From a virus, in the IMG/VR virus record IMGVR_UViG_3300020429_000529, positions 198,762-262,761 of that record: a DNA stretch of 64,000 nt, one strand, 5' to 3'. Under the pieces are notes generated by a model, which saw only the letters and a list, made by a program, of their open reading frames with translations, searched no databases and was not told the DNA's origin. Every line of letters starts with the position of its first letter. The first letter of the stretch is position 1. The translations under genes were made by a program, and so were the position numbers. Positions 1 through 58,511 of the stretch are shown in pieces.

Positions 1-542
1 CCGCTTGCTATGGCTACCTGTCTTATACGACCGCATATCTCAAGGCTCACTATCCAGAAGAATACATGTCTTCATACCTCAATGTCATGCTTCGTTCAAA
101 CAAGCAAGACAAGTACGAGAAGATCTCCCAGTTTGAGAAGGAATGCGAGCGGATGGACATGGAGATCCTGCCTCGCAGCATCAACAAATGCAAGTGGGAT
201 TACGAGATCATCACGAAGCGAGACCCCTCTAAGGGCGTCCAGAAGTCTGAGATCCGACCATCTATCAGATGCAAGGGTTTGAGCCAGCGCGCGGCTATGA
301 ACATCATCGAGAATCAGCCCTTCAAGGATTTGCGCGATTTTGCTTTTGCGACAGACCCGAAGAAGGTTGACTCGAAGAGCGTTGAGTGTCTTGCTCTTGC
401 CGGTTTCTTCAAAGAGAAGAAAGGCAATCGGGTTGTTCGTCGCAAGGCGGAAGAAGTTGTTGAAGAGTTCAGTGTATTGCGAGAAGATCGCAAACGAGTA
501 GGCCGAAAAGGTGTTGAGTCAGATGACCTATTTGGAGGATGA
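1..542 (+). CDS. dnaE: C-terminal fragment of DNA polymerase III alpha subunit (DnaE-like); the 5' end lies outside the window
   Basis: Frame 3 is open from position 3 to the stop at 542. The translation ACYGYLSYTTAYLKAHYPEEYM...EILPRSINKCKWDYEI...IRCKGLSQRAAMNII resembles the conserved DnaE C-terminal region (SYQTAYLKAHYPAEFM, VLPPDIN, IRxGLxAIKG). The ORF track only shows the internal Met at 66. Confidence 0.55.
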   Translation, partial: ACYGYLSYTTAYLKAHYPEEYMSSYLNVMLRSNKQDKYEKISQFEKECERMDMEILPRSINKCKWDYEIITKRDPSKGVQKSEIRPSIRCKGLSQRAAMNIIENQPFKDLRDFAFATDPKKVDSKSVECLALAGFFKEKKGNRVVRRKAEEVVEEFSVLREDRKRVGRKGVESDDLFGG

Positions 543-841
543 CAATGGCAGATGAAGCAAAGACGCCGCGTAAGGCGGTTATCACGAAGACAATCGTGAG
601 GAAGTTGAACACGGCAAAGTATGAGACGATGGATGTCTCGGCGAGTATTTCTCAGGAAGTTGAGTGGAACAACATCACGGAGCTTCTTGAGAAATCCGAG
701 AACATTGGCAAGCTCGTATTGCGAGATTACCAGGGTTTTGAGGCTGAGGCGCTGGAAGAGTTGAACTTGAACTCGTCTCATTCGTCAAAGAATGATGGAG
801 CAACCAAGCCGTTCTCGAAGGATGATTTCGACGGGCTTTGA
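539..841 (+). CDS. hypothetical protein
   Basis: 100-aa ORF that overlaps the dnaE stop by 4 nt (ATGA). No recognisable motif. Confidence 0.4.
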   Translation: MTMADEAKTPRKAVITKTIVRKLNTAKYETMDVSASISQEVEWNNITELLEKSENIGKLVLRDYQGFEAEALEELNLNSSHSSKNDGATKPFSKDDFDGL

Positions 842-860
842 ATCATAAAGGTGCGGACAG

Positions 861-2111
861 ATGGTTGACTATGACATTGCTGAAACAATGGACGACATCT
901 TTGGCGTCCCGCAAGACGGAAGCAACGTAAACGCTTCGTCTGATGAATCTCAAGAAGGCGCATACGCAGAGGTCTCAAATGATGGCGGTAACGCTACATT
1001 TGAAGACAAGGCTGCTGCTGTTAAGGAGACCATCAACGGAGACGGGGACGTTGAATACGGCGATGTTCCCGAGCCAGAGACGCCAGCGCCGCAGGCTGAG
1101 TCTCAAAGCGAGGAGCCATCTCATGATTCCGAACCGAGCAGTTTCGAAGACATCCTCACGGATGCGATTTCAGGCGAAGATAACGGAGGATCGAAGAGTC
1201 CAGAAGTGGATGACGAACCGACCGCTGATTCTGAACCTCCCTTCGACACCGGAGGCGATGAGACGAGCAGCGAAGTACGGGCCGAGCCTCCAATCGATCC
1301 TCAAGATGAGACCAAGATGAGCCAAGAAGAGAAGCCGGTCGAGACCAAAGCCGAAGAACCGACCAACGAGTTCGATGAGGCAGAGTCCGAATCACAAGAA
1401 GATGAGGACGGCTGGATTCTCAGCTTCCCAAGTTCCAAGTACGATGAGTTCTATCGAGAGAAGCGACGAGCCCTGAAGCAAGCTCTGGTTGGAGGCAAGC
1501 TGCCTGTTGACCGTTATGCGAAGGAGCTTATGGATTCTCGGGTAGATACTCGCAACGTGGATATGTATGCTCACGATCTCATCGCTGAGAAGATGGCTGA
1601 TATCCGCATGCAGAAGGATCGAGTCCTTGAGATTCGAGGGCGAGTTCTCCGTCAATACTACAAGTTCCAACGAACGACAGAGATGCTTGAGGGAGCCCTT
1701 GCTCGTTGTCAGTACGAGAAGCCCGTCATTCGTCAGCAGGGTCTCAATCTGATCCATCTGAGGGATTGCGAAAACTACCTGGCAGAACTCAAATATCTCG
1801 TTGAGTTCAGTAGCGAGGTCATGAAGAACCTCGAAGCTGGCTACGAGAACATGAGCCGTTTGGTGTCCATGTCGATGCCCAACAAGATGCTCGAAGGATA
1901 CCAGTCAAACCCTGTCCCCAGGGACTCAAAACCAGCCCCTCAAACTCCTTCTTCAGAACCGCAAAATGAAGAAGAAAACAAGTCCGATTTAAGTGACTTT
2001 GATGGGCTAAAAACCTGCGTGGAAGACAAGGGAAATAAGGCCGAAAAGCCGAAAGAGAATATACCGCCTAAGAAAGGCAACGGCAGTCTGGATTGGGGCG
2101 ACATTGACTGA
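861..2111 (+). CDS. hypothetical protein with a highly acidic low-complexity N-terminal region (about 180 aa) and a C-terminal helical domain
   Basis: 416-aa ORF. The N-terminal half is rich in D/E/S/P. The C-terminal part has a coiled-coil-like composition. No catalytic motif recognised. Confidence 0.45.
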   Translation: MVDYDIAETMDDIFGVPQDGSNVNASSDESQEGAYAEVSNDGGNATFEDKAAAVKETINGDGDVEYGDVPEPETPAPQAESQSEEPSHDSEPSSFEDILTDAISGEDNGGSKSPEVDDEPTADSEPPFDTGGDETSSEVRAEPPIDPQDETKMSQEEKPVETKAEEPTNEFDEAESESQEDEDGWILSFPSSKYDEFYREKRRALKQALVGGKLPVDRYAKELMDSRVDTRNVDMYAHDLIAEKMADIRMQKDRVLEIRGRVLRQYYKFQRTTEMLEGALARCQYEKPVIRQQGLNLIHLRDCENYLAELKYLVEFSSEVMKNLEAGYENMSRLVSMSMPNKMLEGYQSNPVPRDSKPAPQTPSSEPQNEEENKSDLSDFDGLKTCVEDKGNKAEKPKENIPPKKGNGSLDWGDID

Positions 2112-2159
2112 GCCCAGGACTGACGGAAACCCATGTTTGTAAGGAGCAGAAGCGCACAG

Positions 2160-2253
2160 AGAGTACGATAAGAACAGACCACCGAACAGATAAGAACGTT
2201 GAACAGCTAAAGACTAAGAACAGACAGAACAACCATGAACAGGAGAAACAATC
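2160..2253 (+). promoter_or_regulatory. array of short direct repeats (5x GAACAG, 3x TAAGAAC) upstream of the putative SSB gene
   Basis: GAACAG occurs at 2172, 2184, 2201, 2218 and 2237. TAAGAAC occurs at 2169, 2191 and 2215, about 22-24 nt apart. The last copy overlaps the AGGAG ribosome-binding site before the ATG at 2254. Confidence 0.35.
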
Positions 2254-2934
2254 ATGGGTACAGTAGATTGGGATAACGTAGACCCTCGTCCCGAGGGCGC
2301 AGGCTCGGGCAATGGCCGCAGCCGTTTTCTGAAGCTCGAAGCCAACAAGGAATACAAGATTCGACCTGTCGGTAAGCCTTACGAGGTACGCCGATACTTT
2401 GTCCGAGGCGAAGGCGGCAAGTTCAATGTCGCAATCACGGACGCCGGCGATGATTGCGTCATTCTTCGCAACTACAAGAACGCCGATGGAGAGCCTGAGT
2501 ACCAGCAGAGGGTACGCTATGCTCTCAACTGCCTCGACCGCAATGACACCGACCCGGATACCGGCCTTCCTCGACTGAAGATCATTGAGGTTCCGGTCAC
2601 CGTTGCTCGCTTCATCCGCGATTGGGGCAAGGAGATGGGAGTCAACCCCGGCTCTGGTAAGGGCGCTGACTTCAAGATCAAGGTTGTCCTCAAGGGAGAT
2701 GACCGTCGTAACACTCGTTACGAGACCTTCCCGCTCGCTCAGACCGCCTTTACCGATGAGGAGAAGGCGTTCCTCAAGGAGCATGGAGCGTATGACCTTG
2801 AAGAGCAGTTCGCTCCAACCCCGCAGAGCGAGATCGAGGAGAAGCTCGGTCTTTCTGGCGGAGGTTCCACCGTAACCGCAGGCGCATCGAGCGGCTCGTC
2901 TTCGAGCAGCGACGATGACGATCTCGACTTCTAA
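2254..2934 (+). CDS. putative single-stranded DNA-binding protein with an acidic C-terminal tail ending in Phe (T7 gp2.5 / bacterial SSB-tail-like)
   Basis: 226 aa. The C-terminus is GGGSTVTAGASSGSSSSSDDDDLDF, comparable to the SSB tail DDDIPF and the gp2.5 tail ending in DF. The gene sits immediately upstream of recA in the replication module. Assigned by architecture, not by sequence identity. Confidence 0.45.
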   Translation: MGTVDWDNVDPRPEGAGSGNGRSRFLKLEANKEYKIRPVGKPYEVRRYFVRGEGGKFNVAITDAGDDCVILRNYKNADGEPEYQQRVRYALNCLDRNDTDPDTGLPRLKIIEVPVTVARFIRDWGKEMGVNPGSGKGADFKIKVVLKGDDRRNTRYETFPLAQTAFTDEEKAFLKEHGAYDLEEQFAPTPQSEIEEKLGLSGGGSTVTAGASSGSSSSSDDDDLDF

Positions 2935-2965
2935 TCAACGACTCAGACAACTTGGTTAGAACGAC

Positions 2966-3007
2966 GAGCGCCGTGGCCGTTCCCCTCGGCTGCGGCGCTC
3001 ATTTTAC
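2966..3007 (+). terminator. rho-independent terminator-like hairpin between the SSB and recA genes
   Basis: The stem is GAGCGCCGTGGCCG / CGGCTGCGGCGCTC, with two G-U wobbles and loop TTCCCCT, followed by ATTTTA. Confidence 0.4.
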
Positions 3008-3031
3008 ATGCACACATTGCAGGAGCAAAAA

Positions 3032-4285
3032 ATGGCAAAGAAGAATCCAAAGCTTGATGCTCTGCGGAATCTCGCAAATCACGATCCAGATCTTGATAAG
3101 AACTCCCAGATCATTCCAAGCGGTCACTCAGAGCTTGACTTCTACATCTCTCGCGGGCTGTACGAAGATGAGCATGGACAGACAATCGAATACGATGAAG
3201 AAGTGCTGTATGGTTTTCCGAGCGGTAAGCTTGCGATGCTTTATGGCGGCGAGGGTTGCGGTAAGTCATCTCTTGCGTATCGCATTGGCGGCAACGCTCA
3301 GCAGATGGGGCGAGTGGTTTTCTGGATCGACGCAGAGAACTCGTTCAGTCCTCAGTTGGCAAAGATCAACGGTCTTGATCCCGATCAGATCGCTATCCAA
3401 CGACTCTTTGACACAAACGATCCTGACAAGATCTTTGATGCCGAGACGATTCTCGACATTGTGATGGACGCCTGTAAGAAGGGCGCTGGCGTTGTTGTTC
3501 TTGACTCTGTTGCTTCGCTTGTTCCGAAGTATGTCATGGATAACCCGACAGAGAAGGATACTGTCGCTGTTCTGGCGAGAGTCCTTGGCAAGTCGCTATC
3601 CAAGATCGCAGGATATGCTGCGGCCAACGATACGCTTGTCATCTTCCTAAACCAGCTTCGAGTCAACCCAGGACAGATGTTTGGCAACCCCGAGGGTACG
3701 ACTGGCGGTAACGCTCTTCGTCACTTCGTTAGCATCACGCTCAAGATGAACAAGCTGAGCAGCAAGGAAGCGTATCACTACGTTCAAGATGATGAGGGTT
3801 CTGAAACCCTAATCGCTGGGTCAACAAACGTTTGGATCGAGAAGAATCGCTTTGCGAGTCCTCACCGAGAAGCGGTCAAGATTCCGATCTACTACCGCTA
3901 CTACTTCCCTGATGCGGAAGAGATCATCTTTGATTACGGTCGTAAGACTCGCGTGATTTCTGTCCGTAAGGGCGTTTACTCATGGAACGATATCAAGGTT
4001 GAAGGCCGAGAAGATTTCATGAGCGCCGTGAAGGCCAGCGATGCGATCGGCGGTTTGGTCGAAGCTATTCGTGAGGCAGCCGTTGAGAAGGGCATTCCGA
4101 TCCCTCCCGAGGTTGTCAACTACGAGAAGCACGTTCAGTTTGGGCAGAACAACGAGGTTCAGCAGGGCAAAGAGCCGCCTGATTTCGATCCTGACAAGGA
4201 AGCGCCCAAGCGTAAGCAGACCAAGAAGAAGACAAGCAGGATGCCCAAGGTTACTGCAGGCAGCAATGACGAAGCAGAGATATGA
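3032..4285 (+). CDS. recA: RecA-family recombinase
   Basis: Walker A is GGEGCGKSS. The motifs IDAENSF, VLDSVASLVPK, IFLNQLR and MFGNPEGTTGGNALRHFVSITL match the RecA core (IDAE, [37 protein letters not shown]). The ORF track starts at 3008. The ATG at 3032 has an AGGAGC ribosome-binding site. Confidence 0.85.
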   Translation: MAKKNPKLDALRNLANHDPDLDKNSQIIPSGHSELDFYISRGLYEDEHGQTIEYDEEVLYGFPSGKLAMLYGGEGCGKSSLAYRIGGNAQQMGRVVFWIDAENSFSPQLAKINGLDPDQIAIQRLFDTNDPDKIFDAETILDIVMDACKKGAGVVVLDSVASLVPKYVMDNPTEKDTVAVLARVLGKSLSKIAGYAAANDTLVIFLNQLRVNPGQMFGNPEGTTGGNALRHFVSITLKMNKLSSKEAYHYVQDDEGSETLIAGSTNVWIEKNRFASPHREAVKIPIYYRYYFPDAEEIIFDYGRKTRVISVRKGVYSWNDIKVEGREDFMSAVKASDAIGGLVEAIREAAVEKGIPIPPEVVNYEKHVQFGQNNEVQQGKEPPDFDPDKEAPKRKQTKKKTSRMPKVTAGSNDEAEI

Positions 4286-5088
4286 GCGAAATCCGCCTAC
4301 CCGAGATTCAGCGAGAAAGAATTTGCCATCTTGGGCAGGACACTCTGTGGGAAGATGACGCACATGATGTTGAAGAAGCAAGAGAATACTTGCTGAAGAA
4401 GAGAAGGCTGCCAGAGCGTATCTTGAGAGAGTATCGCTTTGGCTACATGCCTCGCAGAGTTCGGCATGATTGGTCTGAGAGGATCATCATGCCGCTTTAC
4501 GACCCATACGGGGAACTCATTGTTCTGACCAGCCGCAAGTTCAGAGCAACCGAACAAAGAGAGTATCCTCACCTTCATGAGACTTTCAACAAGCGGTTCT
4601 ACTTTTACGGTTTCGATGTCGCCAAGAAAGACATCATGCAAAAAGGAAAGGCCATCGTTGTCGAAGGCCAGTTTGATACCGCGCGCATGCGGGCGGCAGG
4701 ATTCAAGATGACAATTGGCATCTTGGGTTCGGCCTTCACATTTGAGCATGCCTGTATTCTCCGTCGCTATTGTAGCGAAGTTTACCTGCTTTTCGATCAT
4801 GATGAGTCAGGACTAAAAACGCTCCGTCGCTCAATGGAGATGATGGACACCCAAGACATTACAGGCACGTTCGGCATGGACTTCATTCCTGTGATATTGC
4901 CAAAGCAGGAAGATCAGAAGAAGATCGATCCGGACGCTTTCCTTGAGGAGCGAGGCGCTGCAGAAATGCGTGATGTTCTCGCTCAGGCCAAACTCGAAAG
5001 AAAACAGTTCTCCTATGAGGACATAGACCGAAGGATCGAAAAGTATGGCATTTCTCAAGCAGCCAACGGAGGTTCAGGCTCTAAGTAA
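4282..5088 (+). CDS. DnaG-like DNA primase (Toprim domain)
   Basis: The Toprim signature is present: EGQFD (conserved Glu) and DHDESG (DxD). The start overlaps the recA stop (ATGA). Confidence 0.6.
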   Translation: MSEIRLPEIQRERICHLGQDTLWEDDAHDVEEAREYLLKKRRLPERILREYRFGYMPRRVRHDWSERIIMPLYDPYGELIVLTSRKFRATEQREYPHLHETFNKRFYFYGFDVAKKDIMQKGKAIVVEGQFDTARMRAAGFKMTIGILGSAFTFEHACILRRYCSEVYLLFDHDESGLKTLRRSMEMMDTQDITGTFGMDFIPVILPKQEDQKKIDPDAFLEERGAAEMRDVLAQAKLERKQFSYEDIDRRIEKYGISQAANGGSGSK

Positions 5089-6085
5089 CGTCCTGAACAC
5101 TTACCTGCGATGGAAGAGTCTTAACGGGCCTCCTCGCGGATACGAAATCTATCACCCCTCTGCATTCGGCAGTTGTCTTCGTAGGATGCAGTATCAGCGA
5201 TACGCAGAGCGAGGGCATATTGAAGTTGCGCCTATCGCTCACGAAGCGAAGACTGTCCGCATCTTTGACTCAGGTCACTCGATGCATGATCGATGGGCGA
5301 AGTATTGGGAAGAGATTGGGGTTCTTCGAGGTATCTGGGAGTGTAAGAACCCATGCTGCCGTCTGTGGGACGATGAGGGCAACTACAAGGGCGATAGCGA
5401 TAGCTGTCCGTTCGTGGTGCCTGAGCATGGAGGCAAGCCATCAGACGAGCCCCTGTCGCCTCCTCGCAAGTACGGCAAGGAAGACAAGCTCGGCGCTTTC
5501 AAGCCCGAGCGCTGCGTTTGCGGATGTCAGGATTTCGAGTATCATGAAATCACGGTCTACGACAAGGAACTGAACTTCCGAGGTCATGTTGACCAGATTA
5601 TTGACTTCTCAAAGTTTCCTGGCGGCAAGACCTACAAGGAGGGAAGACCCGTCAAGGTGCTTTTCAAGGACGAAGATCTTCCCAAGGAACCTATCGTTGT
5701 TGACATGAAGAGCATCAACTCTTTCGGTTTCAAGACCAAGCTTGAAGATGGCGCTGCACCCTTTGGGTACAGAGTCCAGGTCAACATCTATTTGCATCTG
5801 CTGGATCTGCAGTGCGGCGTCCTCTACTTCGAGAACAAGGACAACAGCGGAACTCGACTTGTTCATGTCCCAAGAGATCCTGATTTGTGGGAGAAGATCA
5901 AAGAACAGGCGAGGACAATGACAGATATGGTTGATGACTTGCTTTTGCCTCCTCCAAGACCCAAGGGCCAGGGCGAGTTTGAGTGTAGAAATTGTGAATT
6001 TCAGTCGATATGTCACTCATCGGGTATATGGGAAGACCCAAACCTGGCTGAGAAACGGCTGAAGTTCTATGGAGGCTTCTCCTAA
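5045..6085 (+). CDS. PD-(D/E)XK nuclease of the Cas4/RecB type with Cys clusters
   Basis: GHVDQIID ... VVDMKS gives a D...D/ExK arrangement. The C-terminal CRNCEFQSIC cluster is typical of Cas4/AddB Fe-S nucleases. There is an internal Cys-rich insert (CKNPCC...CVCGC). Confidence 0.5.
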   Translation: MAFLKQPTEVQALSNVLNTYLRWKSLNGPPRGYEIYHPSAFGSCLRRMQYQRYAERGHIEVAPIAHEAKTVRIFDSGHSMHDRWAKYWEEIGVLRGIWECKNPCCRLWDDEGNYKGDSDSCPFVVPEHGGKPSDEPLSPPRKYGKEDKLGAFKPERCVCGCQDFEYHEITVYDKELNFRGHVDQIIDFSKFPGGKTYKEGRPVKVLFKDEDLPKEPIVVDMKSINSFGFKTKLEDGAAPFGYRVQVNIYLHLLDLQCGVLYFENKDNSGTRLVHVPRDPDLWEKIKEQARTMTDMVDDLLLPPPRPKGQGEFECRNCEFQSICHSSGIWEDPNLAEKRLKFYGGFS

Positions 6086-6109
6086 AGGACTTGGCAGATC
6101 AAGGAGAAG

Positions 6110-6457
6110 ATGATGAGTAGCTACGCAGATGATCCAACCCTTCTGAAAGTTCGAGGCGAAGGCAACGGACAACGCGGTGCAAACGATGAAGAACGAGACC
6201 TGCAGCGAAAAGAGTATGTCAAGAAGGTTTCTTCTGCTGTCCTCACGGTTATCGGTAAGCATGGTTCCGCCAAGCTGAAGGCAGTTGGCGCTCCATCGTT
6301 GAGCAATGCAGTGAAGGCGGCGATTATTGCCCGAGGCGAGGGCGCTAAGAAGGGCATGGATCTCGTGGCAGAGATGAGTTTTGACAACGCAGAGTTCGAT
6401 GGATCTGTTAAGACAGCGATCGTTCTTCGCATTGTTGATCGCAACAACGGAGGTTGA
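6110..6457 (+). CDS. SpoVS-like (stage V sporulation protein S family) small protein
   Basis: SAVLTVIGKHGSAKLKAVGAPSLSNAVKAAIIARGEGAKKGMDLVAEMSFDNAEFDGSVKTAIVLRIV aligns with SpoVS (AIGAGALNQAVKAVAIARGFV...ERTAIKLIV). Confidence 0.55.
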   Translation: MMSSYADDPTLLKVRGEGNGQRGANDEERDLQRKEYVKKVSSAVLTVIGKHGSAKLKAVGAPSLSNAVKAAIIARGEGAKKGMDLVAEMSFDNAEFDGSVKTAIVLRIVDRNNGG

Positions 6458-7073
6458 AGTGAGTTACGACGCAGTAATCGATGAAATCTTGCAAGCAGAG
6501 CCGGATAAAATCTCGCGCATCTTGAGAGGCGAGGAAGAGATCGGCGATCCAACAGAGATCGAAGATGTCCTTCTTGAGATCAACCGACTCGAACGGAATG
6601 TCGAGTTCTTCAAGAAGCTCAAGAAGCGACGAACCGAGCCTTTGGATCAGCGGATCAAGGAGAGCGATGCGCAGATCGATCAGCTTCGAGCAGCCATTAT
6701 TGACTGCATGGAGCGAACCAACAATAGCAGCCTTGATTTCCCCGAGGTTGCCAAGATCAGTTGTCGCAAGAAGGCCGGATCCTGGGATATCAAGGATGAG
6801 GCCAATGTGGAAGAGCATCTTCAGGAGCTTGGCGTTCTCGATGATGTTGCAACCAGGACGTTGAAGTTCGACAAGAGGAAGCTGTATAAGCTCCTCAACG
6901 AGCTTCTTGAGAACAACAACGTTCCCGAAGGAGCAGAGAAGTCTGAGGACAGCCAAACGGTTGCTATCTCGTTCTATGAAAAGGCAGAAGATCGTGCGAA
7001 GCAGGATCAGGCCGAGCGAGAGGCAGCCAGGTGGAAGAAGGCTGAATCCAACTACGACTCGCTGACGATCTGA
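6381..7073 (+). CDS. hypothetical coiled-coil protein (true start probably the GTG near 6459)
   Basis: The ORF overlaps the SpoVS-like gene. GGAGG followed by a GTG at about 6459 sits right after the upstream stop. The protein is charged and helical, with no motif recognised. Confidence 0.4.
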   Translation: MTTQSSMDLLRQRSFFALLIATTEVEVSYDAVIDEILQAEPDKISRILRGEEEIGDPTEIEDVLLEINRLERNVEFFKKLKKRRTEPLDQRIKESDAQIDQLRAAIIDCMERTNNSSLDFPEVAKISCRKKAGSWDIKDEANVEEHLQELGVLDDVATRTLKFDKRKLYKLLNELLENNNVPEGAEKSEDSQTVAISFYEKAEDRAKQDQAEREAARWKKAESNYDSLTI

Positions 7074-7813
7074 TGAGCAAACGATTAGAAGACTCACGAA
7101 AACTGCTCGATTACATCTACTCAAAGATACCTGAGACAAAAGGATGTATGGAGCATATCTCGAAGCCCGTTTCCGAAGGAGGATGCGGAGCTTGGTGCTG
7201 TCAAACTCAGAACCCTCAAGTTCTGTACGTTGAGTTCCGCAATGCATGGAACAACGTACAAGAGAACTGGTCTGACCAGGATATCATTGAGCTTGTCCGC
7301 AGAAGCCTGCGAGCATATCTCTTTGCATCAGAGCGCGATGGTTGCGTGTTCTGGGATCGAGAAACCAAGATGTGTTCGCACCATGAAACCCGACCATTCA
7401 ACTGTCGAGTTTATGGCATTACTCCCGAGGAGGAATGGAGACCTCGCTACGAGCGACTCAAGGTCATCTATCCCGACACAAGGGAACAATGCAACCTTGT
7501 TTCGACAGCAGACGGTTCGGAGTTCACGAAGAAGAAAAGCGATTCTCTCTGGAACATGCTCAAGAACGCGGAGAAGACAATCGGCGTTCGTCCCTCTGAT
7601 ATCCATGATGATTTCGGGGGATCGTACCGCAGGTACTACGAGCATGTCATCTTGCATCTCATGGGCGATGAAGGCATGGAGATGTTGAGTCAAGTCAGAG
7701 AGCATGGCAGTAACGATGAGAAAGAAGGCGTTATCAAGGCGGCGCTCGACGGTCTCATCAAGATGAAGGAGACTGCAAATGTCGGAGCGACGAGCGACGA
7801 TTCTGACGGCTGA
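7073..7813 (+). CDS. YkgJ/UPF0153-like putative Fe-S or zinc-binding protein
   Basis: GGCGAWCCQ plus CVFWDRETKMCSHHETRPFNCRVYG matches the CxxCxxCC ... C..IY..RP..CR pattern of the YkgJ (PF03692-like) family. Confidence 0.45.
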   Translation: MSKRLEDSRKLLDYIYSKIPETKGCMEHISKPVSEGGCGAWCCQTQNPQVLYVEFRNAWNNVQENWSDQDIIELVRRSLRAYLFASERDGCVFWDRETKMCSHHETRPFNCRVYGITPEEEWRPRYERLKVIYPDTREQCNLVSTADGSEFTKKKSDSLWNMLKNAEKTIGVRPSDIHDDFGGSYRRYYEHVILHLMGDEGMEMLSQVREHGSNDEKEGVIKAALDGLIKMKETANVGATSDDSDG

Positions 7814-8090
7814 TTACAAGTCCGAAAGCGACCTGATGATTTGGACTCTTCGTTTTCACGACAACGATGAGGAGCAATCATTTTGTTGGCCGAGTCGAGA
7901 CTACCTTGAGCATGTTGTCAACATCAGCGTCCCCAAGAAGTTCGTGATCGATGAGAATCTCATCAAGCAGTTGTCCGATCATTGCGAGGCAATGAAAGGG
8001 AAAGAAGTCAACTTTGATGTGAGGAAAGAGATCAACAACCCGTTGACGGACATTGCGAAGGAGCTTTCATCGGGGAGTATTGAGGAATGA
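7779..8090 (+). CDS. hypothetical protein
   Basis: 103-aa ORF overlapping its neighbours. No motif recognised. Confidence 0.3.
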   Translation: MSERRATILTADYKSESDLMIWTLRFHDNDEEQSFCWPSRDYLEHVVNISVPKKFVIDENLIKQLSDHCEAMKGKEVNFDVRKEINNPLTDIAKELSSGSIEE

Positions 8091-10987: not shown

Positions 10988-11975
10988 CGAACCAGGCAAG
11001 TTTGACATCTACGTTGGCGATCCGCGAGAAGTATTGCCCGAGTCATTCGAGAAGCAGAGCGTTCATTGTTCTATCACAAGTCCTCCGTACTGGAAGCAGC
11101 GAACATACGGGCACGACGGAGAGATAGGCAATGAGCCAACTCTCGAAAGCTACCTCGACAACGTATGCGGTGTCTTTGATGCTGTTCGACCTGTGCTTCG
11201 CAACGACGGCACGCTCTTTGTGAACATCGGAGATAAGGTTGATGATGGTCAATGCCTGAACATTCCCTTCATGTTTGCTGAAGAGATGAAGCGTCGAGGA
11301 TGGTTTCAGAGACAGTGGATGCCCTGGTTGAAGCGTAACGGCATCCCCAAGGGAGGGCCATCCAAGCCCAACGACAATCTCGAAGTCATCCTCATGTTCT
11401 CGAAAACGAAGGGTAACTATTACTACGATCAGTTGTCGGCGAAAGAACAGGCAGGCTTGACGACTCGTATGTTCCGTAATGGCGATTCGATCACGCTTGA
11501 TCCAGAACCCGATTATTGGGTCTTCGACGTTCTGACTCGCAAGAACTTCTCGCCGCATTTCTCGACGTTTCCGCCGCTCTTGGCAGAGATCATGGTCAGA
11601 GCAGGCACGAGCGACGAGGGCGTTCACCCGACGACAGGCGAGCCCGCTGTCCGCAAGGTAGAGAAGCGTCGGTACGCAACAAGATCTGGTACAAAGTCAA
11701 AAGAAGACAAGAGCGGTATGGCGTTCCGAGACAAGGGTCGTCATATCACAGAGTTCAGCACTCTTGGGTGGGAGTTTTCTCAGCCGATCAAGGTTGATGA
11801 GATGAGTAAGCCCATTGTTCTTGATCCGTTTAGCGGTCTTGCGACAACCGGAGTGGCTTGTATGGATCACAGAAGGTTCTACAAGGGAATCGAGCTTGTT
11901 GAGGAGTTTGCTCAAGAGGGACGAGACAGGCTGTTGACCCATAATCCGCCGGATGTTTTCGATGACGTTCAGTAA
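10953..11975 (+). CDS. DNA methyltransferase (amino-MTase of the N6A/N4C type, beta-class motif order)
   Basis: SPPY motif IV (ITSPPYW) lies upstream of FDPFSGLATTG motif I. No adjacent restriction endonuclease is recognisable, so this looks like an orphan methyltransferase. Confidence 0.8.
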   Translation: MTQGFRMGQVFSEPGKFDIYVGDPREVLPESFEKQSVHCSITSPPYWKQRTYGHDGEIGNEPTLESYLDNVCGVFDAVRPVLRNDGTLFVNIGDKVDDGQCLNIPFMFAEEMKRRGWFQRQWMPWLKRNGIPKGGPSKPNDNLEVILMFSKTKGNYYYDQLSAKEQAGLTTRMFRNGDSITLDPEPDYWVFDVLTRKNFSPHFSTFPPLLAEIMVRAGTSDEGVHPTTGEPAVRKVEKRRYATRSGTKSKEDKSGMAFRDKGRHITEFSTLGWEFSQPIKVDEMSKPIVLDPFSGLATTGVACMDHRRFYKGIELVEEFAQEGRDRLLTHNPPDVFDDVQ

Positions 11976-12336
11976 TCACTACGACTATTACAGGGATAAA
12001 GCCTCGGATTGGTTCTATGAGAACGGCATCGAAGAGTATGTCGAAGCAACGACCATCGGAGACCCTTTGCCGGTTTACATGGCCAGAGTTGGCGACGAGT
12101 GGATGAGGATAACCTGTCACGAAATGGGGATAGAGATGGCTTACGGAAACATCAAGAAGCTCAAGACATCTGACGATCAGGTTGTCGAGATGGAGCAGCA
12201 CGATCCCAAGAAGGGCACGATGTCTATCCGAGATGTGGCTGAAGCCAAGCAGAAGGCAGAGAAGAAACGAAAAGACGAGGAAGAGCATCGCCTATCGAGA
12301 GAGGCGTCTCGGGGCGAGTTCATTGAACTTGATTGA
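11953..12336 (+). CDS. hypothetical protein ending in RGEFIELD
   Basis: 127-aa ORF. Its C-terminal octapeptide is shared with the next gene. Confidence 0.4.
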   Translation: MFSMTFSNHYDYYRDKASDWFYENGIEEYVEATTIGDPLPVYMARVGDEWMRITCHEMGIEMAYGNIKKLKTSDDQVVEMEQHDPKKGTMSIRDVAEAKQKAEKKRKDEEEHRLSREASRGEFIELD

Positions 12337-12770
12337 TGAAGATTGCGCTACCAGGCAAGACTGATGTCCTACGAGTTGGATCGGACCCCATTCTGTTGAG
12401 CAGAATGAAGGGCGTTCATGTGGACTTCGATGGTAAGCGAGTTTTGTATCAGGCGTGGGTCGTTACGAGCGATCACAACAAGCTCAAGCCTCCCATGAAG
12501 AACGTCATCGCAACCGATTCGTTCGAGATTCAGTCTGCTGGTACTTTTACGTCTGACAACGTATCGCATCCGTGCCATGTCCATCGGGCTGTTTATCACG
12601 CTGCAAAGCATATGTATCTTGTCGAGTTCACGTGCGGGCTCGATATGGAATCTGATCTGAAACCTACAACCATACAAAAAGGCATGTCGAATACACCGAA
12701 TACTGAAACAGACATAGCCGTTAAGGATGTTGCTGATAATGGCAGAGGAAACTTCATCGAGTTCGACTAA
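12333..12770 (+). CDS. hypothetical protein ending in RGNFIEFD
   Basis: 145-aa ORF. The C-terminal motif is similar to that of the preceding ORF. Confidence 0.4.
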   Translation: MMKIALPGKTDVLRVGSDPILLSRMKGVHVDFDGKRVLYQAWVVTSDHNKLKPPMKNVIATDSFEIQSAGTFTSDNVSHPCHVHRAVYHAAKHMYLVEFTCGLDMESDLKPTTIQKGMSNTPNTETDIAVKDVADNGRGNFIEFD

Positions 12771-13515
12771 GAGTATCAACGAACTCTCGGGCGCTCACAA
12801 AGAGCAGATGGCCTTCATTCTCGGAGCGGGGCCATCTCTACATTTCCAGGACTTAGAACCGCTTCATAACTATGTCACCTTTGCTGTCAATTCTGGTCTC
12901 CTAAAGATGCCAGATTGCGATTACTTTGTGACAGATGATGGCGCTGCGGCAGATTGGAACTACTTCAGAGACACCGCCAAGAATAGCCATTGCAAGAAGC
13001 TTCTTTTCCGCGCCAAGCTAAAGAAGTCGGCATCTCACTTTCGCCAAAATGAAGTCTTCTGGTACGATCATGTCAGAGAGCATAGCCCTGACTTTGACGG
13101 AGCCAATCTGAACGGCTATGAAATGGGACCAGTCAATCCTCTCATGGCCGCAAGAACCTCAGCAGGGTCAGCGGTACATGCTGCGCACATCATGGGGTGT
13201 AGTCCGATTGTTCTTCTCGGATGCGATTCGTGTCATAAGTACGGCAAGCGATATTTCTGGCAGTTCCCCAAGGAAGAGAAAGCGTACCGAGTCAATGATT
13301 CTCGACCGCCTTGGACAAAGGCTGACAGAGGCCAGCTTAGGGGCAAGCCGGTTGACCAGCATTGCATAGATTTCGATGTCTATTGGAAGCGAGTTGCCAA
13401 GGCCAATCCTGGTGTAAACATCATCTATGCGTCAGAGGGTGGACTGATTGATGCGTTCCCGTCGATGAAGCTGACAGAAGTGTTAGCGGAATACGGCGGG
13501 CGCACCAAGCAATGA
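12727..13515 (+). CDS. GT42/DUF115 (MAF, CstII-like) putative nonulosonic-acid (sialyl) transferase, paralog 1
   Basis: An N-terminal GAGPSL motif and an LLGCDSCH motif resemble CstII GNGPSL ... LSGIDFY. It is a tandem paralog of the next gene. Confidence 0.5.
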   Translation: MLLIMAEETSSSSTKSINELSGAHKEQMAFILGAGPSLHFQDLEPLHNYVTFAVNSGLLKMPDCDYFVTDDGAAADWNYFRDTAKNSHCKKLLFRAKLKKSASHFRQNEVFWYDHVREHSPDFDGANLNGYEMGPVNPLMAARTSAGSAVHAAHIMGCSPIVLLGCDSCHKYGKRYFWQFPKEEKAYRVNDSRPPWTKADRGQLRGKPVDQHCIDFDVYWKRVAKANPGVNIIYASEGGLIDAFPSMKLTEVLAEYGGRTKQ

Positions 13516-14261
13516 ACCTCAAAGACCTCGAAGACAAGCATAAGGGCAAACTCGGGTTTGTAGTAGGAGCAGGGCCATCGCTCCATTTTCAAGATGTTGA
13601 GCCCCTTAGCAACTACGTCACAATAACCGCAAACTCGGGTATTCTCAAAATTCCAGATTGCGACTACTTCGTCAGCGATGACGAAGGCGTTCGCCATTGG
13701 AACTACTACAGAGTCACAGCCAAAAACAGTAAGTGTACCAAGCTACTGTATCGAGCCAAGCTCGGAGATCATATCGGGCACTTCAAGCCCGAAGAGGTTT
13801 TGCTCTTTGATCACAAATCCTGGTATGAGCCAAGCAAAAGGGCATGGAAAGAAGGCGGCGGAACGATGACCAAGGATGCCGAAGCACCGATTATTGGCGC
13901 TCGGACATCTCTTGCAACCGGCCTTCATTGGGCTCACATTATGGGTTGCGATCCCATCGTTCTTCTCGGGTGCGATTGCTGCTACAAGGGTCGTAACCGT
14001 TACTTCTGGCAGTTCCCTGGTGAAACCAAGGGATACCAGATGAATAACCGACCTGTCTTTTCTACTCCGAATCGAGGGTTGAAAAAGAACAAGCCGGTCG
14101 ATAATCACTGTGTTGACTTCCTTGAGTATTGGAAGAAGCTCGCCGAAGAAGCCAAAGGCGTTGCGAACATCATCTACGCATCAGAGGGCGGCATCCTTGA
14201 TGTCTTTCCTTCGATGACTCTGGTTGAGGTTCTTGAGAAGTACGGAGATAGGACCAAATGA
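13512..14261 (+). CDS. GT42/DUF115-like putative sialyltransferase, paralog 2 (tandem duplicate)
   Basis: GAGPSLHFQDVEPLSNYVTITANSGILKIPDCDYFVSDD and LLGCDCCYKG are highly similar to the preceding ORF. Confidence 0.5.
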   Translation: MNLKDLEDKHKGKLGFVVGAGPSLHFQDVEPLSNYVTITANSGILKIPDCDYFVSDDEGVRHWNYYRVTAKNSKCTKLLYRAKLGDHIGHFKPEEVLLFDHKSWYEPSKRAWKEGGGTMTKDAEAPIIGARTSLATGLHWAHIMGCDPIVLLGCDCCYKGRNRYFWQFPGETKGYQMNNRPVFSTPNRGLKKNKPVDNHCVDFLEYWKKLAEEAKGVANIIYASEGGILDVFPSMTLVEVLEKYGDRTK

Positions 14262-14962
14262 TAAACGACCGCAGAGTCCTTGCAATCATACCGGCACGAG
14301 CCGGATCTAAAGGCGTTCCTGGTAAGAACTATCAAGACCTTGCAGGCAAGCCTCTTATTTCATGGAGCATCGAGGCCGCTATCAAGAGCGAGCTTATTGA
14401 TGCTATTTGCGTCACGACCAACTGCGATGAGTGCGCGAAGATCGCCAAGCGATACGAGAAGGATCATGTTATTACGATCCGTCGTCCCGAAGATCTTTGT
14501 TCGGCTACATCAAGAACAGAAGATGCCATGTCTCATGCCGTGGCATGTCTTGGCGAGAAGTGGGGATATGTCTGTCTGCTTCAGCCAACATCTCCCGCTC
14601 GTCCTCGAAGGCTGATCGATCGGGCCATCATGAAGATGATCGATACGGAGTCGGACAGCGTTATCACGGTAACATCAGAGACGCCTTTCTTTTGGCGAGT
14701 TACTCCCGATGCTCATCAGCCCTACCCGCTGTATTCCAATATCCGCCGTCCCATGCGTCAGGATCTTGACGACTCAGAGATGTTCTATCACGACAACGGC
14801 AACTTTTACGCCGTTGAAGGAGAGTTGTTGAGAGAGTATGGACGGATTGGAAGGAAAACCGCTCTTCAGGTAACGACTAAGTATGAAAGTATGCAAATAG
14901 ATACTGAAGAAGACTTCGCTGTTATGAACTCGATGGCGGAGGTATATGGCCCCCTGATCTAA
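14258..14962 (+). CDS. neuA: acylneuraminate (CMP-nonulosonate) cytidylyltransferase
   Basis: AIIPARAGSKGVPGKNYQDLAGKPLI is the N-terminal signature of the CMP-NeuAc/CMP-Kdo synthetase family. Confidence 0.7.
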   Translation: MINDRRVLAIIPARAGSKGVPGKNYQDLAGKPLISWSIEAAIKSELIDAICVTTNCDECAKIAKRYEKDHVITIRRPEDLCSATSRTEDAMSHAVACLGEKWGYVCLLQPTSPARPRRLIDRAIMKMIDTESDSVITVTSETPFFWRVTPDAHQPYPLYSNIRRPMRQDLDDSEMFYHDNGNFYAVEGELLREYGRIGRKTALQVTTKYESMQIDTEEDFAVMNSMAEVYGPLI

Positions 14963-14972
14963 GGGAGAAAAC

Positions 14973-15845
14973 GTGGAATACCCAACCCCTAATGTCATTG
15001 CCGAGATTGGCTGCGTGCATCTCGGTAAACCTGAAAGAGCTAAAGAGCTATGTAAGCTGGCAAAGCTTTGCTCCGCAGATTACGTCAAGTTCCAAAAGAG
15101 GAATCCCGAAGAGAGTACGCCTGTTCATATGAGGGACAAGCCTCATCCGAACAAGATCTTTGCTTACGGCGAGACTTACCTTGAGCATCGCCAGAATCTC
15201 GAACTCAGCATCATTGAGCATGCGGAGATCAAGCAGTTCTGCGAAGATATCGGTATCGGTTACTCGACATCGGTCTGGGATCTCACTTCAGCAAAAGAGG
15301 TCGTAGAGCTTGACCCCGAGTTTGTGAAGATCCCGAGCGCTTGCAATCAACACTATGAGATGCTGAAGTATCTCGTTGACAACTTCAAGGGCGATATTCA
15401 TGTTTCAACGGGCATGACTGATCGAAATGAGATGCAAGCTCTTCGCGAGTTTGTAGGTCAGAATCCCGATCGCTTTGTTGTCTACCATTGCACGAGCAAG
15501 TACCCATGCGAGTTTGATGATCTTCACTTGCTTGAGATAGAACGTCTCAAAAGCGAATGGAAGACCCGCATTGGTTTCAGCAACCACGGTAAGGGTATCG
15601 CTGCGGATGTAGCGGCATACATGCTTGGCGCAGAATGGATCGAGCGACACTTTGTTGATGATCGAACAATGCGTCATACTGATGCTGCTGCGAGTCTTGA
15701 GTCGCCCGGATTGCAGAGGCTCTGCAGAGACTTGAGAGCGATCCGTCGTGCATTGGTAAATCGGCCAGATGAAATGGACGAAGAAGAGTTGCTGCAGCGG
15801 CACAAGATGAAGTTCCACGGAGACAGTTATGGGTCTGGACATTGA
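14973..15845 (+). CDS. neuB: NeuB-family nonulosonic acid (sialic/legionaminic/pseudaminic) synthase, TIM-barrel core only
   Basis: IAEIGCVHLGKPERAKELCKLAKLCSADYVKFQKRNPEE matches the NeuB N-terminus. There is no C-terminal SAF domain. GTG start. Confidence 0.7.
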   Translation: MEYPTPNVIAEIGCVHLGKPERAKELCKLAKLCSADYVKFQKRNPEESTPVHMRDKPHPNKIFAYGETYLEHRQNLELSIIEHAEIKQFCEDIGIGYSTSVWDLTSAKEVVELDPEFVKIPSACNQHYEMLKYLVDNFKGDIHVSTGMTDRNEMQALREFVGQNPDRFVVYHCTSKYPCEFDDLHLLEIERLKSEWKTRIGFSNHGKGIAADVAAYMLGAEWIERHFVDDRTMRHTDAAASLESPGLQRLCRDLRAIRRALVNRPDEMDEEELLQRHKMKFHGDSYGSGH

Positions 15846-16317
15846 TAAGGTCAAGATGTTTGCGGTCGATGTTGATGGAACGCTCACAAACGGTCTCTAC
15901 ACCGTGGACGAATCAGGCATCGTTTCCAAGAGCTTTCATACCCGAGATTTTTACGCGCTCAATCGAATGAAGCAGCTTGGCTTCACGATTGTCATCATCA
16001 CATCAGCGCAAGATACTGTCATCGAAGAGAAGTGCCGTCCATTCGATTTCCTTGTCTATACAGGTGTTGAGAACAAGGCCGAAGAGATGGGCCGCATCCT
16101 GAAAGCTCACAAGATGAAGTGGGAGAATCTTGGGTATATCGGAGACGCAGAGAACGATCTTGAGTGCATGTCACATGCGGCATTCACAGGATGCCCTCTG
16201 GATGCAATCCCCGAAGTTGCAGAAAGTATCAATTATCAGTCTGTCCAGCACGGCGGGCACGCTGCTGTCTATGACATTATGCGTAAGTATTGCGATTACG
16301 CTGCTCTCGACTGGTGA
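15829..16317 (+). CDS. KdsC-like HAD phosphatase (nonulosonate-9-phosphate or KDO-8-P phosphatase)
   Basis: FAVDVDGTLTNG (DxDGT motif) and GDAENDLECM motif III. Size and layout are typical of KdsC. Confidence 0.7.
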   Translation: MGLDIDKVKMFAVDVDGTLTNGLYTVDESGIVSKSFHTRDFYALNRMKQLGFTIVIITSAQDTVIEEKCRPFDFLVYTGVENKAEEMGRILKAHKMKWENLGYIGDAENDLECMSHAAFTGCPLDAIPEVAESINYQSVQHGGHAAVYDIMRKYCDYAALDW

Positions 16318-16342
16318 AGACGAAGTAAGGTAGAATGTAGCC

Positions 16343-17675: not shown

Positions 17676-17718
17676 ACCGCTTCTGGACGATACATGAGTA
17701 TCGTACCTGGGAGCAAGT

Positions 17719-21271: not shown

Positions 21272-21273
21272 GT

Positions 21274-22134: not shown

Positions 22135-22135
22135 G

Positions 22136-34846: not shown

Positions 34847-34889
34847 ATCTGGCCGATGTCATAGAATGTAACTGCAGGAGGATCTCTAA

Positions 34890-38469: not shown

Positions 38470-38511
38470 TCCCGAAACGATCGCAGTAACACAAGAAGAA
38501 GGAGTTTGAAT

Positions 38512-47212: not shown

Positions 47213-47238
47213 TTCTCAAGTCCATTGATTGTTCTCCG

Positions 47239-58510: not shown

Positions 58511-58511
58511 A

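What the first reader, a model, noticed from the sequence alone, without database searches (positions are those of the whole stretch)
2254..2934. Two proteins carry bacterial-SSB-like acidic C-terminal tips (…DDDDLDF and …DDDDDDDNPF)
The putative SSB ends SSSSDDDDLDF. The unrelated acidic helical protein at 37777..38469 ends ILDDDDDDDNPF, very close to the E. coli SSB tip DDDIPF that recruits more than a dozen genome-maintenance proteins. The second protein could be an SSB-tail mimic that hijacks or blocks host SSB-interacting enzymes, or an adaptor that uses the same docking site on viral replisome proteins.
Basis: partly seen in the sequence, partly recalled or inferred. Interest (0 to 1): 0.5.

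Follow-up and report, generated by a model that had tools for sequence, protein, structure and literature searches.

The report
Megaphage SSB and helical protein acidic tails
A roughly 500-kb marine phage encodes a T4-gp32-like single-stranded-DNA-binding protein whose flexible tail always ends in an acidic patch plus a final phenylalanine, and a second unrelated helical protein has a similar-looking tail that is only partly conserved, so whether the two share a docking site is unproven.

Summary
ORF 2254..2934 ends SSSSSDDDDLDF. ORF 37777..38469 (true start probably 37819) ends DDDDDDDNPF.

The second protein ("X") is an acidic all-helical orphan with a disordered tail. It sits in a conserved block: VCGDDW protein, X, DUF3892, Topo IA. 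It occurs only in one megaphage sub-lineage. The tip DDDDDDDNPF is a lineage-specific extension. Close homologs end SLDPNDIF, and more distant ones lack a terminal Phe. That ancestral tip looks more like the phage DnaE C-terminus (D[MIL]F, clamp-motif-like) than like the SSB tip.

A shared docking site, as in T7 gp2.5 and gp4, is possible but untested. Verdict: an ordinary SSB with an interesting hybrid tail, and the mimic idea is only partly supported.

The parts
2254..2934 (+). gp32-fold single-stranded-DNA-binding protein (226 aa plus stop)
2254..2316 (+). SSB N-terminal disordered peptide (aa 1-21) with invariant Trp6; inferred cooperativity or contact peptide
   Evidence: pLDDT below 50 for residues 1-21. 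W6 is invariant in 24 sequences. The function is inferred by analogy with the gp32 N-terminal domain.
2317..2859 (+). SSB OB-fold core (aa 22-202), without Zn-finger ligands
2860..2931 (+). SSB disordered Gly/Ser/Ala linker plus acidic tip; the tip DDDDLDF is 2911..2931
   Evidence: pLDDT below 50 for residues 203-226. Tip profile in 34 distinct sequences: F 34/34 at position 0, L/I/V/M/F 34/34 at -2, D/E 32/34 at -3.
37819..38469 (+). Protein X: acidic (net charge -31) all-helical orphan protein, 216 aa plus stop; the mechanical ORF starts at 37777
   Evidence: ORF. Start supported by homolog N-termini and public gene calls. AF2 pLDDT 80, seven helices over residues 3-181. No Pfam, PHROG, PDB or BFVD match. 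Net charge.
38362..38466 (+). X low-confidence acidic tail (aa 182-216), HGDEELDVSFEFDVFDSNDLVDPDILDDDDDDDNPF
   Evidence: pLDDT is 56, 46, 50 and 42 in the last four 10-residue blocks (residues 181-216), with residues 188-197, 199-202 and 210-216 below 50. Sequence.
38419..38436 (+). Internal VDPDIL, which aligns with the C-terminal (S)LDPNDIF tip of close X homologs
   Evidence: Alignment A2. Homolog tails.
38437..38466 (+). Lineage-specific extension DDDDDDDNPF, encoded by a GAT/GAC run plus AAT CCG TTT
   Evidence: DNA. Full-length members of the 90%-identity cluster differ only at residue 2. Absent from all other homologs.
1..542 (+). Context: C-terminal end of DnaE (Pol III alpha), running off the left edge and ending ...ESDDLFGG (clamp-motif-like)
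   Evidence: HHH_6 and PHROG DNA polymerase hits. Translation. Eleven homologs end [DN][MIL]F plus 1-3 residues.
3008..4285 (+). Context: RecA/UvsX-like recombinase immediately downstream of the SSB
   Evidence: Pfam RecA E=8e-38; PHROG UvsX-like E=9e-45.
4282..5088 (+). Context: DnaG-type Toprim primase
   Evidence: Pfam Toprim_4 and DNAG_N.
37362..37835 (+). Context: conserved 'VCGDDW' protein immediately upstream of X and overlapping its start
   Evidence: synteny in L012, L013, L014, L015, L018, L024 and L103.
38506..38754 (+). Context: DUF3892 small protein between X and the topoisomerase
   Evidence: Pfam DUF3892 E=6e-4 (below the gathering cutoff); same position in L012 and L024.
38830..40836 (+). 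Context: type IA topoisomerase with C-terminal zinc ribbons
   Evidence: Pfam Topoisom_bac E=7e-118, Toprim, Zn_ribbon_Top1.
42970..44094 (+). Context: DnaX-like clamp-loader ATPase
   Evidence: Pfam DNA_pol3_delta2 E=7e-35, DNA_pol3_gamma3.
45854..47212 (+). Context: sliding-clamp-like processivity factor
   Evidence: PHROG 947 'DNA polymerase processivity factor', E=5e-8.
47229..48443 (+). Context: delta-like clamp-loader subunit
   Evidence: Pfam DNA_pol3_delta E=8e-4; PHROG clamp loader E=3e-3.

Best explanation
The window comes from a roughly 500-kb marine megaphage that replicates with a bacterial-type (Pol III) replisome.

Gene 2254..2934 is its replicative and recombination SSB. It has a gp32-fold OB core without a zinc finger. 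A short conserved N-terminal peptide precedes the core. A disordered Gly/Ser/Ala linker and an acidic tip, [DE]-[LIVMF]-x-Phe-COOH, follow it. The fold, the disorder and the conservation are shown here. The following is inferred: the tip is a docking peptide whose terminal Phe and free carboxylate insert into a basic, hydrophobic pocket on partner proteins, as bacterial SSB-Ct and the T7 gp2.5 tail do, and it may also fold back on the ssDNA groove. The residue before Phe varies freely (G, D, P, A and others), whereas in E. coli that Pro matters. I therefore infer that the receptor is mainly phage-encoded, for example the clamp-loader module, the primase, the RecA-like recombinase or the polymerase, rather than a host SSB partner.

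Protein X (37819..38469) is a lineage-specific accessory protein of the Topo IA / clamp-loader gene block. It is an acidic helical bundle with a disordered acidic tail, and the conserved element of that tail is hydrophobic-D-P-x-D-[IL]-F-COOH. I infer that this tail is also a docking peptide anchored by its terminal aromatic residue. In this phage it has acquired an extra Asp7-Asn-Pro-Phe end, which makes it resemble the SSB tip in charge and terminus. This could let X share or compete for the SSB-tip pocket, as the tails of T7 gp4 and gp2.5 share sites on the T7 polymerase. The shared-receptor step is the least supported.

For: Bacterial-type replisome. DnaE, DnaX, delta-like, clamp-like and Toprim primase genes are in the window, and a DnaB-type helicase is in the syntenic relative L023.

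X. Helical core plus low-confidence tail. The block VCGDDW - X - DUF3892 - Topo IA is conserved in at least 7 contigs. A terminal aromatic residue is kept in 10 of 17 representatives, with a recurring D-P-x-D motif. On the same 191,867-bp contig the SSB ends DDDIAF and X ends SLDPNDIF.

Precedents. E. coli SSB-Ct is MDFDDDIPF and recruits at least 17 partners (PMC7913777). T7 gp2.5 ends ...DEDGDF and gp4 ends ...NDTDF, and both are modelled on the same site of the T7 polymerase (PMC12339929).
Against: No binding partner was identified, and no complex prediction was possible.

The tip of X in this phage is not conserved: it is a lineage-specific extension from a GAT/GAC run. Two lineages keep the SSB Phe tip, but their X ends GRKPKDS or DNTDFWN. 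X is absent from three more distant Topo IA lineages inspected by hand and from about 60 further Topo IA loci screened with the X profile. If there is a shared receptor, it cannot depend on X.

The two motifs differ in register: the SSB has its hydrophobic residue at -2 and the X clade at -1. The window's X ends N-P-F and fits neither fully.

At sequence level the SSB is not a Pfam gp32 or bacterial SSB member.
Confidence: 0.5

Rival explanations
1. The X tail is a sliding-clamp-binding motif, not an SSB-tip look-alike. X would then be a client or regulator of the phage clamp, tethered through ...D-[IL]-F-COOH in the same way as the phage DnaE C-terminus.
For: The window's DnaE ends ESDDLFGG, and 11 homologs end [DN][MIL]F plus 1-3 residues. 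This echoes the E. coli alpha clamp motif QADMF and the consensus Q-phi-x-[L/M]-[F/L] (PMC11139829). The X-clade tips DPNDIF, DPRDIF, DPDSIF, NPDDIF and DPNDLF share the [DS]-[IL]-F register. X lies in the same gene block as DnaX, the clamp-like gene and the delta-like gene.
Against: There is no Gln at motif position 1 in X or in DnaE. The window's own X ends N-P-F, with Pro where Leu, Met or Ile is expected. Distant X homologs lack the motif. Binding of the phage clamp to any of these tails has not been tested.
Confidence: 0.2
2. Host hijack or blockade. The X tip, and possibly the SSB tip, mimics the host SSB-Ct and so sequesters or recruits host SSB-interacting enzymes such as ExoI, RecQ, PriA and chi.
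For: DDDDDDDNPF and DDDDLDF resemble E. coli DFDDDIPF in charge and in the terminal (P)F. Some SSB family members end DDDDVPF, EDEDLPF, DDDFPF or GDDLPF, essentially the bacterial consensus.
Against: Position -1 of the SSB tip is mostly Gly, Asp or Ala, and Pro in only 5 of 34 sequences. X lacks the -2 hydrophobic residue. The X tip is not conserved even among close relatives. The phage encodes its own bacterial-type replisome, so it has less need of host partners. The host is unknown.
Confidence: 0.1
3. The X tail is not a specific docking motif. It would then be a generic acidic low-complexity tail, for solubility, DNA mimicry or a decoy against DNA-binding host or defence proteins, or an entropic spacer. 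The Asp7 run would be a product of replication slippage, and the terminal Phe incidental.
For: The poly-Asp is encoded by a GAT/GAC run. The whole protein is strongly acidic: net -31 here and -8 to -34 in homologs. The tail end varies widely across the family. The fold has no informative match.
Against: Eight representatives with only about 23-35% identity to the window protein keep a nearly identical [DN]-P-x-[DS]-[IL]-F-COOH end. Terminal Phe with an acidic run is otherwise absent from 1,480 background ORFs. X has a fixed position in a replication gene block rather than in an anti-defence locus.
Confidence: 0.2

Closest known systems
[quoted passage not shown]
   Different: No Pfam gp32 hit. 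No conserved zinc ligands. The N-terminal peptide is acidic with an invariant Trp, not basic. Seven canonical gp32 proteins end differently (five in DDLDxLLxxL/M-like motifs) and never in Phe, whereas this family always ends [LIVMF]-x-F. The partner replisome is Pol III-type, not T4-type.
Bacterial SSB C-terminal tip (SSB-Ct, E. coli MDFDDDIPF)
   Same: A disordered linker followed by an acidic tip with a hydrophobic residue at -2 and a terminal Phe. Some family members end DDDDVPF or DDDFPF. It co-occurs with DnaE, DnaX, DnaG-type primase and (in relative L023) DnaB-type proteins, the class of partners SSB-Ct serves in bacteria.
T7 gp2.5 and gp4 acidic C-terminal tails
   Same: Two proteins of one phage replisome each end in an acidic run plus terminal Phe: T7 has ...ADEDGDF and ...WSNDTDF. 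In T7 both tails use the same sites on the polymerase. This is the direct precedent for a shared docking site.
   Different: The SSB fold is different. X is not a helicase-primase. The X tail is not conserved across its family. No common receptor has been identified here.
Beta-clamp-binding motifs (Q-phi-x-[L/M]-[F/L]; E. coli alpha QADMF)
   Same: The phage DnaE C-terminus ([DN][MIL]F) and the X-clade tips (D[IL]F-COOH) share the last three motif positions.
   Different: No Gln at position 1. The window's X ends NPF. The SSB tip has the L-x-F register. Clamp binding has not been tested.

Membership tests
T4 gp32-like SSB | gp32-type OB-fold core | tested here: met
T4 gp32-like SSB | Sequence-level membership (Pfam gp32 model or profile match) | tested here: inconclusive
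   No Pfam family at E up to 0.1. PHROG 1192 'ssDNA binding protein', E=1.5e-4. hhalign against T4 gp32: E=0.01, probability 4%, collinear over 67 columns. No tblastn hit in GenBank phages.
T4 gp32-like SSB | Zinc-binding subdomain (His/Cys3 ligands; from my own knowledge of T4 gp32) | tested here: not met
   Only one Cys (C68) and no His are invariant in the 24-sequence alignment.
T4 gp32-like SSB | Acidic C-terminal region ending in a DDLDxLLxxL/M-type motif | tested here: not met
   An acidic, Ser-rich tail is present. The tip, however, is [DE]-[LIVMF]-x-F in 34 of 34 sequences. T4 and six diverse gp32 homologs never end in Phe.
Bacterial SSB (PF00436) | Bacterial SSB OB domain | tested here: not met
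Bacterial SSB (PF00436) | Disordered linker plus acidic tip ending hydrophobic-x-Phe-COOH | tested here: met
   Residues 203-226 have pLDDT below 50. Tip profile. Compare MDFDDDIPF.
Bacterial SSB (PF00436) | The tip binds partner proteins in a basic, hydrophobic pocket | not testable with these tools
   No complex prediction or binding assay was available.
T7-type shared acidic tails (gp2.5 / gp4) | Two replisome proteins of one phage end in an acidic run plus terminal Phe | tested here: met
   Window: DDDDLDF and DDDDDDDNPF. Contig DRR438487_479: DDDIAF and SLDPNDIF. T7: DEDGDF and NDTDF. X's membership of the replisome is inferred from gene position only.
T7-type shared acidic tails (gp2.5 / gp4) | Both tails bind the same receptor site | not testable with these tools
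   Indirect evidence is weak. The motif registers differ. In two lineages X lacks the terminal Phe while the SSB keeps it.
Beta-clamp-binding motif (for the X tail) | Q-phi-x-[L/M]-[F/L] or Q-phi-x-[L/M]-x-[F/L] | tested here: not met
   No Gln at position 1, and the window's X ends D-N-P-F. Close homologs match only the last three positions, D-[IL]-F. Consensus taken from PMC11139829.
Any described protein family (for X) | Match to Pfam, PHROGs, PDB sequences, PDB folds or BFVD folds | tested here: not met
   Searches gave only sub-threshold or generic helical matches.

The most novel reading that the evidence does not exclude
In Pol III-type megaphages, a gp32-fold SSB has converged on the bacterial SSB-Ct docking code. 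A dedicated lineage-specific helical protein (X) then carries a look-alike tail and competes with, or hands over from, the SSB tip at one replisome pocket. This would be an independent re-invention of the T7 gp2.5/gp4 tail-sharing principle, or alternatively a decoy that titrates host SSB-interacting enzymes.
Probability: 0.15. Interest if true: 0.6.

Novelty: new variant of a known kind. Interest (0 to 1): 0.38.

Why it matters
SSB tails are the hubs that organise replication, repair and recombination proteins. Here the tail type appears to go with the type of replisome rather than with the fold of the SSB. The tail is bacterial-style, [LIV]-x-Phe, and the replisome is Pol III-type. The core is gp32-like, yet seven canonical gp32 proteins read here have different tails that never end in Phe.

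If confirmed, this would give a simple sequence rule for predicting which partners a phage SSB talks to. It would also give a handle on the almost unstudied replisomes of marine megaphages.

Protein X and several neighbouring proteins carry conserved C-terminal aromatic motifs. Together they suggest that this replisome is wired by a set of short docking peptides that could be mapped experimentally. On its own, however, the finding is an ordinary SSB plus an orphan acidic protein.

Tried and rejected
**Searches that gave nothing**
- GenBank phage searches found no relatives: blastn of 1..8000 and tblastn of both proteins.
- PDB sequence searches gave nothing for either protein.
- For X, Pfam and PHROG scans of all 16 family members gave only scattered sub-threshold hits.

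**Attempts to find more X homologs**
- The search for related loci with X alignments failed because no stretch was conserved enough.
- A degenerate DNA pattern for PERKIAIAFI found only a chance match.
- The word-indexed protein search with the X profile added only P0041.
- An X profile scan of 69 further Topo IA loci found no new homologs.

**Attempts to obtain more same-genome SSB/X pairs**
- The P0032 contig (50 kb) probably ends before the SSB position.
- Contig walking was not attempted because of the look-up limits.

**Ideas considered and dropped**
- X as a T4 gp33-like partner of a clamp-coupled sigma factor. The sigma-like protein next to the clamp gene ends ...QDNPED, without an aromatic tip. 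T4 gp33 ends TLDFLL, and X shows no similarity to it.
- The SSB as gp2.5-like. gp32 is the clear top structural match.
- A DnaB helicase tail like that of T7 gp4. The DnaB homolog in L023 ends ...NSLDLD.

Full report
**1. The observation**

ORF 2254..2934 (+) encodes a 226-aa protein ending ...GASSGSSSSSDDDDLDF. It has an AGGAGA ribosome-binding site 8 nt upstream. ORF 37777..38469 (+) ends ...LVDPDILDDDDDDDNPF.

The second gene most likely starts at 37819 (MNPERK..., 216 aa). Close homologs P0026 and P0027 begin with this motif, public gene calls use that start, and the upstream gene ends at 37835.

Among 307 six-frame ORFs of at least 60 aa in the window, only these two combine at least 4 acidic residues in positions -7..-1 with a terminal aromatic residue. 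None of 1,480 ORFs in 69 other jumbo-phage loci does (Fisher one-sided p=0.03). With a looser threshold the window is not enriched. Conservation, not counting, carries the argument.

**2. Where the window comes from**

Both exact proteins occur on about 21 public contigs each. About a dozen of these are 0.2-1 Mb long, including contigs of 498,610, 498,618 and 502,461 bp from marine (Tara Oceans) metagenomes. There are no DNA or protein relatives among 50,697 GenBank phage records.

The window encodes these replication and repair genes:
- the C-terminal end of DnaE (1..542)
- a RecA/UvsX-like recombinase (3008..4285)
- a DnaG-type Toprim primase (4282..5088)
- a Cas4-like exonuclease and a UvrD helicase
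- Topo IA (38830..40836)
- DnaX (42970..44094)
- a clamp-like protein (45854..47212) and a delta-like subunit (47229..48443)

A syntenic 191,867-bp contig adds a DnaB-type helicase, a DnaG zinc ribbon and a DnaE split into two ORFs. The replisome is therefore bacterial (Pol III) in type. This matches the published hallmark of the largest marine jumbo-phage cluster (PMC9123017).

**3. The 2254 protein is a gp32-fold SSB**

- Pfam gives no hit, and PHROG 1192 ("single strand DNA binding protein") matches at E=1.5e-4.
- Twenty-four homologs with 39-65% identity were found, many on contigs of 190-490 kb. Eleven more came from IMG/VR contigs of about 5-490 kb, eight of them over 100 kb.
- An AF2 model built on this alignment has a confident core (residues 22-202, pLDDT above 90). 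Residues 1-21 and 203-226 are disordered.
- hhalign against T4 gp32 is weak but collinear: GADFKIKV aligns with GANFVLKV.
- The gp32 zinc ligands are not conserved. The alignment has one invariant Cys and no invariant His.

**4. The SSB tip**

In 34 distinct family sequences the last residue is Phe in 34 of 34. Position -2 is L/I/V/M/F in 34 of 34. Position -3 is D or E in 32 of 34. Position -1 is free (G 13, D 7, P 5, A 3 and others).

This is the form of the bacterial SSB-Ct (MDFDDDIPF; PMC7913777). Some members end DDDDVPF, EDEDLPF, DDDFPF or GDDLPF.

T4 gp32 ends ...[22 protein letters not shown]. Six diverse gp32 homologs were also read: Tevenvirinae, Slopekvirus, an Aeromonas jumbo phage, Ackermannviridae, a Vibrio phage and a cyanophage. 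Some end in related Leu-rich acidic motifs and the others end differently. None ends in Phe.

The Ser-rich acidic tail design is thus gp32-like. The terminal [LIV]-x-F code is specific to this megaphage family, and it coincides with a Pol III-type replisome.

The free -1 position argues for a phage-encoded receptor rather than host SSB partners. In E. coli that position is Pro, and from my own knowledge the ssb113 mutation P176S is defective. The receptor assignment is inference.

A subgroup (P0007-P0013) carries a second, internal DDDDF-APR motif.

**5. Protein X**

X is very acidic: net -31 overall, of which -14 lies in the last 30 residues. AF2 gives seven helices over residues 3-181 at mean pLDDT 80, followed by a low-confidence tail.

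It matches no described family or fold.

An exhaustive profile-free search of 1.8 billion representatives found only 15 homologs with 25-37% identity. One more (P0041) came from the word-indexed search.

X sits in a conserved block: a 105-aa protein, a 150-aa protein, (a metallophosphatase), the VCGDDW protein, X, DUF3892, Topo IA. This order is seen in L012, L013, L014, L015, L018, L024 and L103.

X is missing from three more distant Topo IA lineages, where the VCGDDW-like and DUF3892 genes are adjacent. It was also not detected in about 60 further IMG/VR Topo IA loci. It is a narrow, lineage-specific accessory gene.

**6. Is the X tail conserved?**

Partly.
- Eight representatives end [DN]-P-x-[DS]-[IL]-F-COOH: SLDPNDIF, SLDPRDIF, PIDPDSIF, PLDPNDIF, SLNPDDIF (twice) and SLDPNDLF.
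- One ends NEEFEF and one ends RDIW.
- Seven representatives do not end in an aromatic residue, although most keep acidic and aromatic residues near the end.
- In the alignment, the window's internal VDPDIL matches these tips. DDDDDDDNPF is an added extension, encoded by a GAT/GAC run. It is seen only in this phage population.

Four same-genome pairs are available:

| Genome | SSB tail | X tail |
|---|---|---|
| This window | DDDDLDF | DDDDDDDNPF |
| DRR438487_479 | DDDIAF | SLDPNDIF |
| IMG/VR 3300020429_000539 | DDDFPF | GRKPKDS |
| IMG/VR 3300033067_001661 | KLDLGF | DNTDFWN |

The SSB tip is therefore constant whether or not X has a Phe tip. The X-clade tip places its hydrophobic residue at -1, and the SSB tip places it at -2.

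**7. A competing reading from the neighbours**

DnaE in the window ends ...ESDDLFGG. Eleven homologs end [DN][MIL]F plus 1-3 residues. This resembles the E. coli alpha clamp motif QADMF and the consensus Q-phi-x-[L/M]-[F/L] (PMC11139829).

The X-clade tip D-[IL]-F matches that register better than it matches the SSB tip. X may therefore be a clamp client. The window's own N-P-F end fits neither pattern fully.

**8. Mechanism and precedent**

In T7 the SSB gp2.5 (...ADEDGDF) and the helicase-primase gp4 (...WSNDTDF) both end in acidic runs plus Phe. Both are placed on the same site of the polymerase (PMC12339929). Two replisome proteins sharing one docking code is therefore an established principle.

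I commit to the following.
- The 2254 product is the phage's SSB, and its tip is a partner-docking peptide. Confidence is about 0.85 for the identity and about 0.6 for a phage-encoded receptor.
- X is an accessory protein of the Topo IA / clamp-loader block. Its tail is a docking peptide anchored by the terminal aromatic residue (about 0.45).
- That X and the SSB use the same pocket is possible but weakly supported (about 0.2).
- Host hijack is less likely (about 0.1).

**9. Verdict**

The SSB call is right in function but wrong in family: it has a gp32 fold with a bacterial-style tip.

Novelty is a new variant of a known kind. Interest is moderate to low unless a shared receptor is demonstrated.

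Noticed in passing
window 1..542 (+); related loci L001-L011 and L023, about 6200-8300: DnaE (Pol III alpha) runs off the left edge of the window and ends ...GVESDDLFGG. Eleven homologs end [DN][MIL]F plus 1-3 residues. This is a likely C-terminal clamp-binding motif, like E. coli alpha QADMF.
   Followed up: partly
L023 4758..6197; L001 4524..5918; L002 3038..4489; L007 3417..4811; L009 4929..6323: In relatives DnaE is split into two ORFs, sometimes with inserted genes between them. The N-terminal half always ends in an acidic run plus ...D[LMA]GGVDRY.
   Followed up: no
window 539..841 (+): A 100-aa protein between DnaE and the 416-aa protein ends ...SKDDFDGL. Most homologs end KKDFDxL or a close variant. 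This is another conserved C-terminal aromatic motif of unknown partner.
   Followed up: partly
window 861..2111 (+): A 416-aa protein just upstream of the SSB has an N-terminal half that is extremely acidic and low-complexity. It contains an internal SDFDGL and ends ...SLDWGDID. Most homologs keep a Trp within the last few residues (W[LDM]D-type). It has no family match.
   Followed up: partly
window 35847..36164 (+); L012 8159..8476; L013 3882..4235; L015 2978..3343; L024 7965..8345: A 105-aa protein in the X / Topo IA block ends ...DEDYDDEITEEGQCF. The end GQCF (DQCF in L015) is conserved in five lineages, and larger proteins at the same position in two others end IGQIFG.
   Followed up: partly
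window 44115..44894 and 44950..45741 (+): A sigma-70-like protein (weak region 2 and region 4 hits) and a LAGLIDADG/AP2 homing endonuclease lie between the DnaX clamp-loader gene and the clamp-like gene. An unannotated 311-317-aa gene occupies the slot after DnaX in relatives (L024, L103), but its homology to the sigma-like protein was not tested. The sigma-like tail, ...QDNPED, has no aromatic tip.
   Followed up: partly
SSB homologs P0007-P0013 (for example L023 10001..10681): One SSB subgroup carries a second, internal acidic-Phe motif (DDDDF-APR) about 20-30 residues before the terminal DD[IV]xF tip.
   Followed up: no
window about 12700..35750 (+): A long block of about 25 genes lies between the replication modules. 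By synteny with L012, L024 and L103 it encodes sugar and glycan biosynthesis enzymes: glycosyltransferases, DegT aminotransferase, epimerases, UDP-glucose dehydrogenase and acetyltransferases. In the window itself only the MptE-like protein at 12727..13515 was scanned.
   Followed up: no
window 49243..50382 and 58421..61165 (+): The window encodes a full-length DnaJ chaperone (J domain, zinc-finger domain and C-terminal domain). It also encodes a 914-aa protein with poly(A)-polymerase/CCA-adding head and HD domains.
   Followed up: no
window 11953..12336 and 12333..12770 (+); L001 20028..20441: Two adjacent small ORFs end ...RGEFIELD and ...RGNFIEFD, and an ORF in L001 ends ...ARGEFIEFD. They may be tandem paralogs. 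They follow a DNA methylase gene, and their function is unknown.
   Followed up: no
L069 8135..8791 (+): In an unrelated IMG/VR jumbo-phage Topo IA locus, a 218-aa ORF ends ...SKSIDTSSVSDDDLF. It may be another SSB-like protein with an acidic tail and terminal Phe.
   Followed up: no
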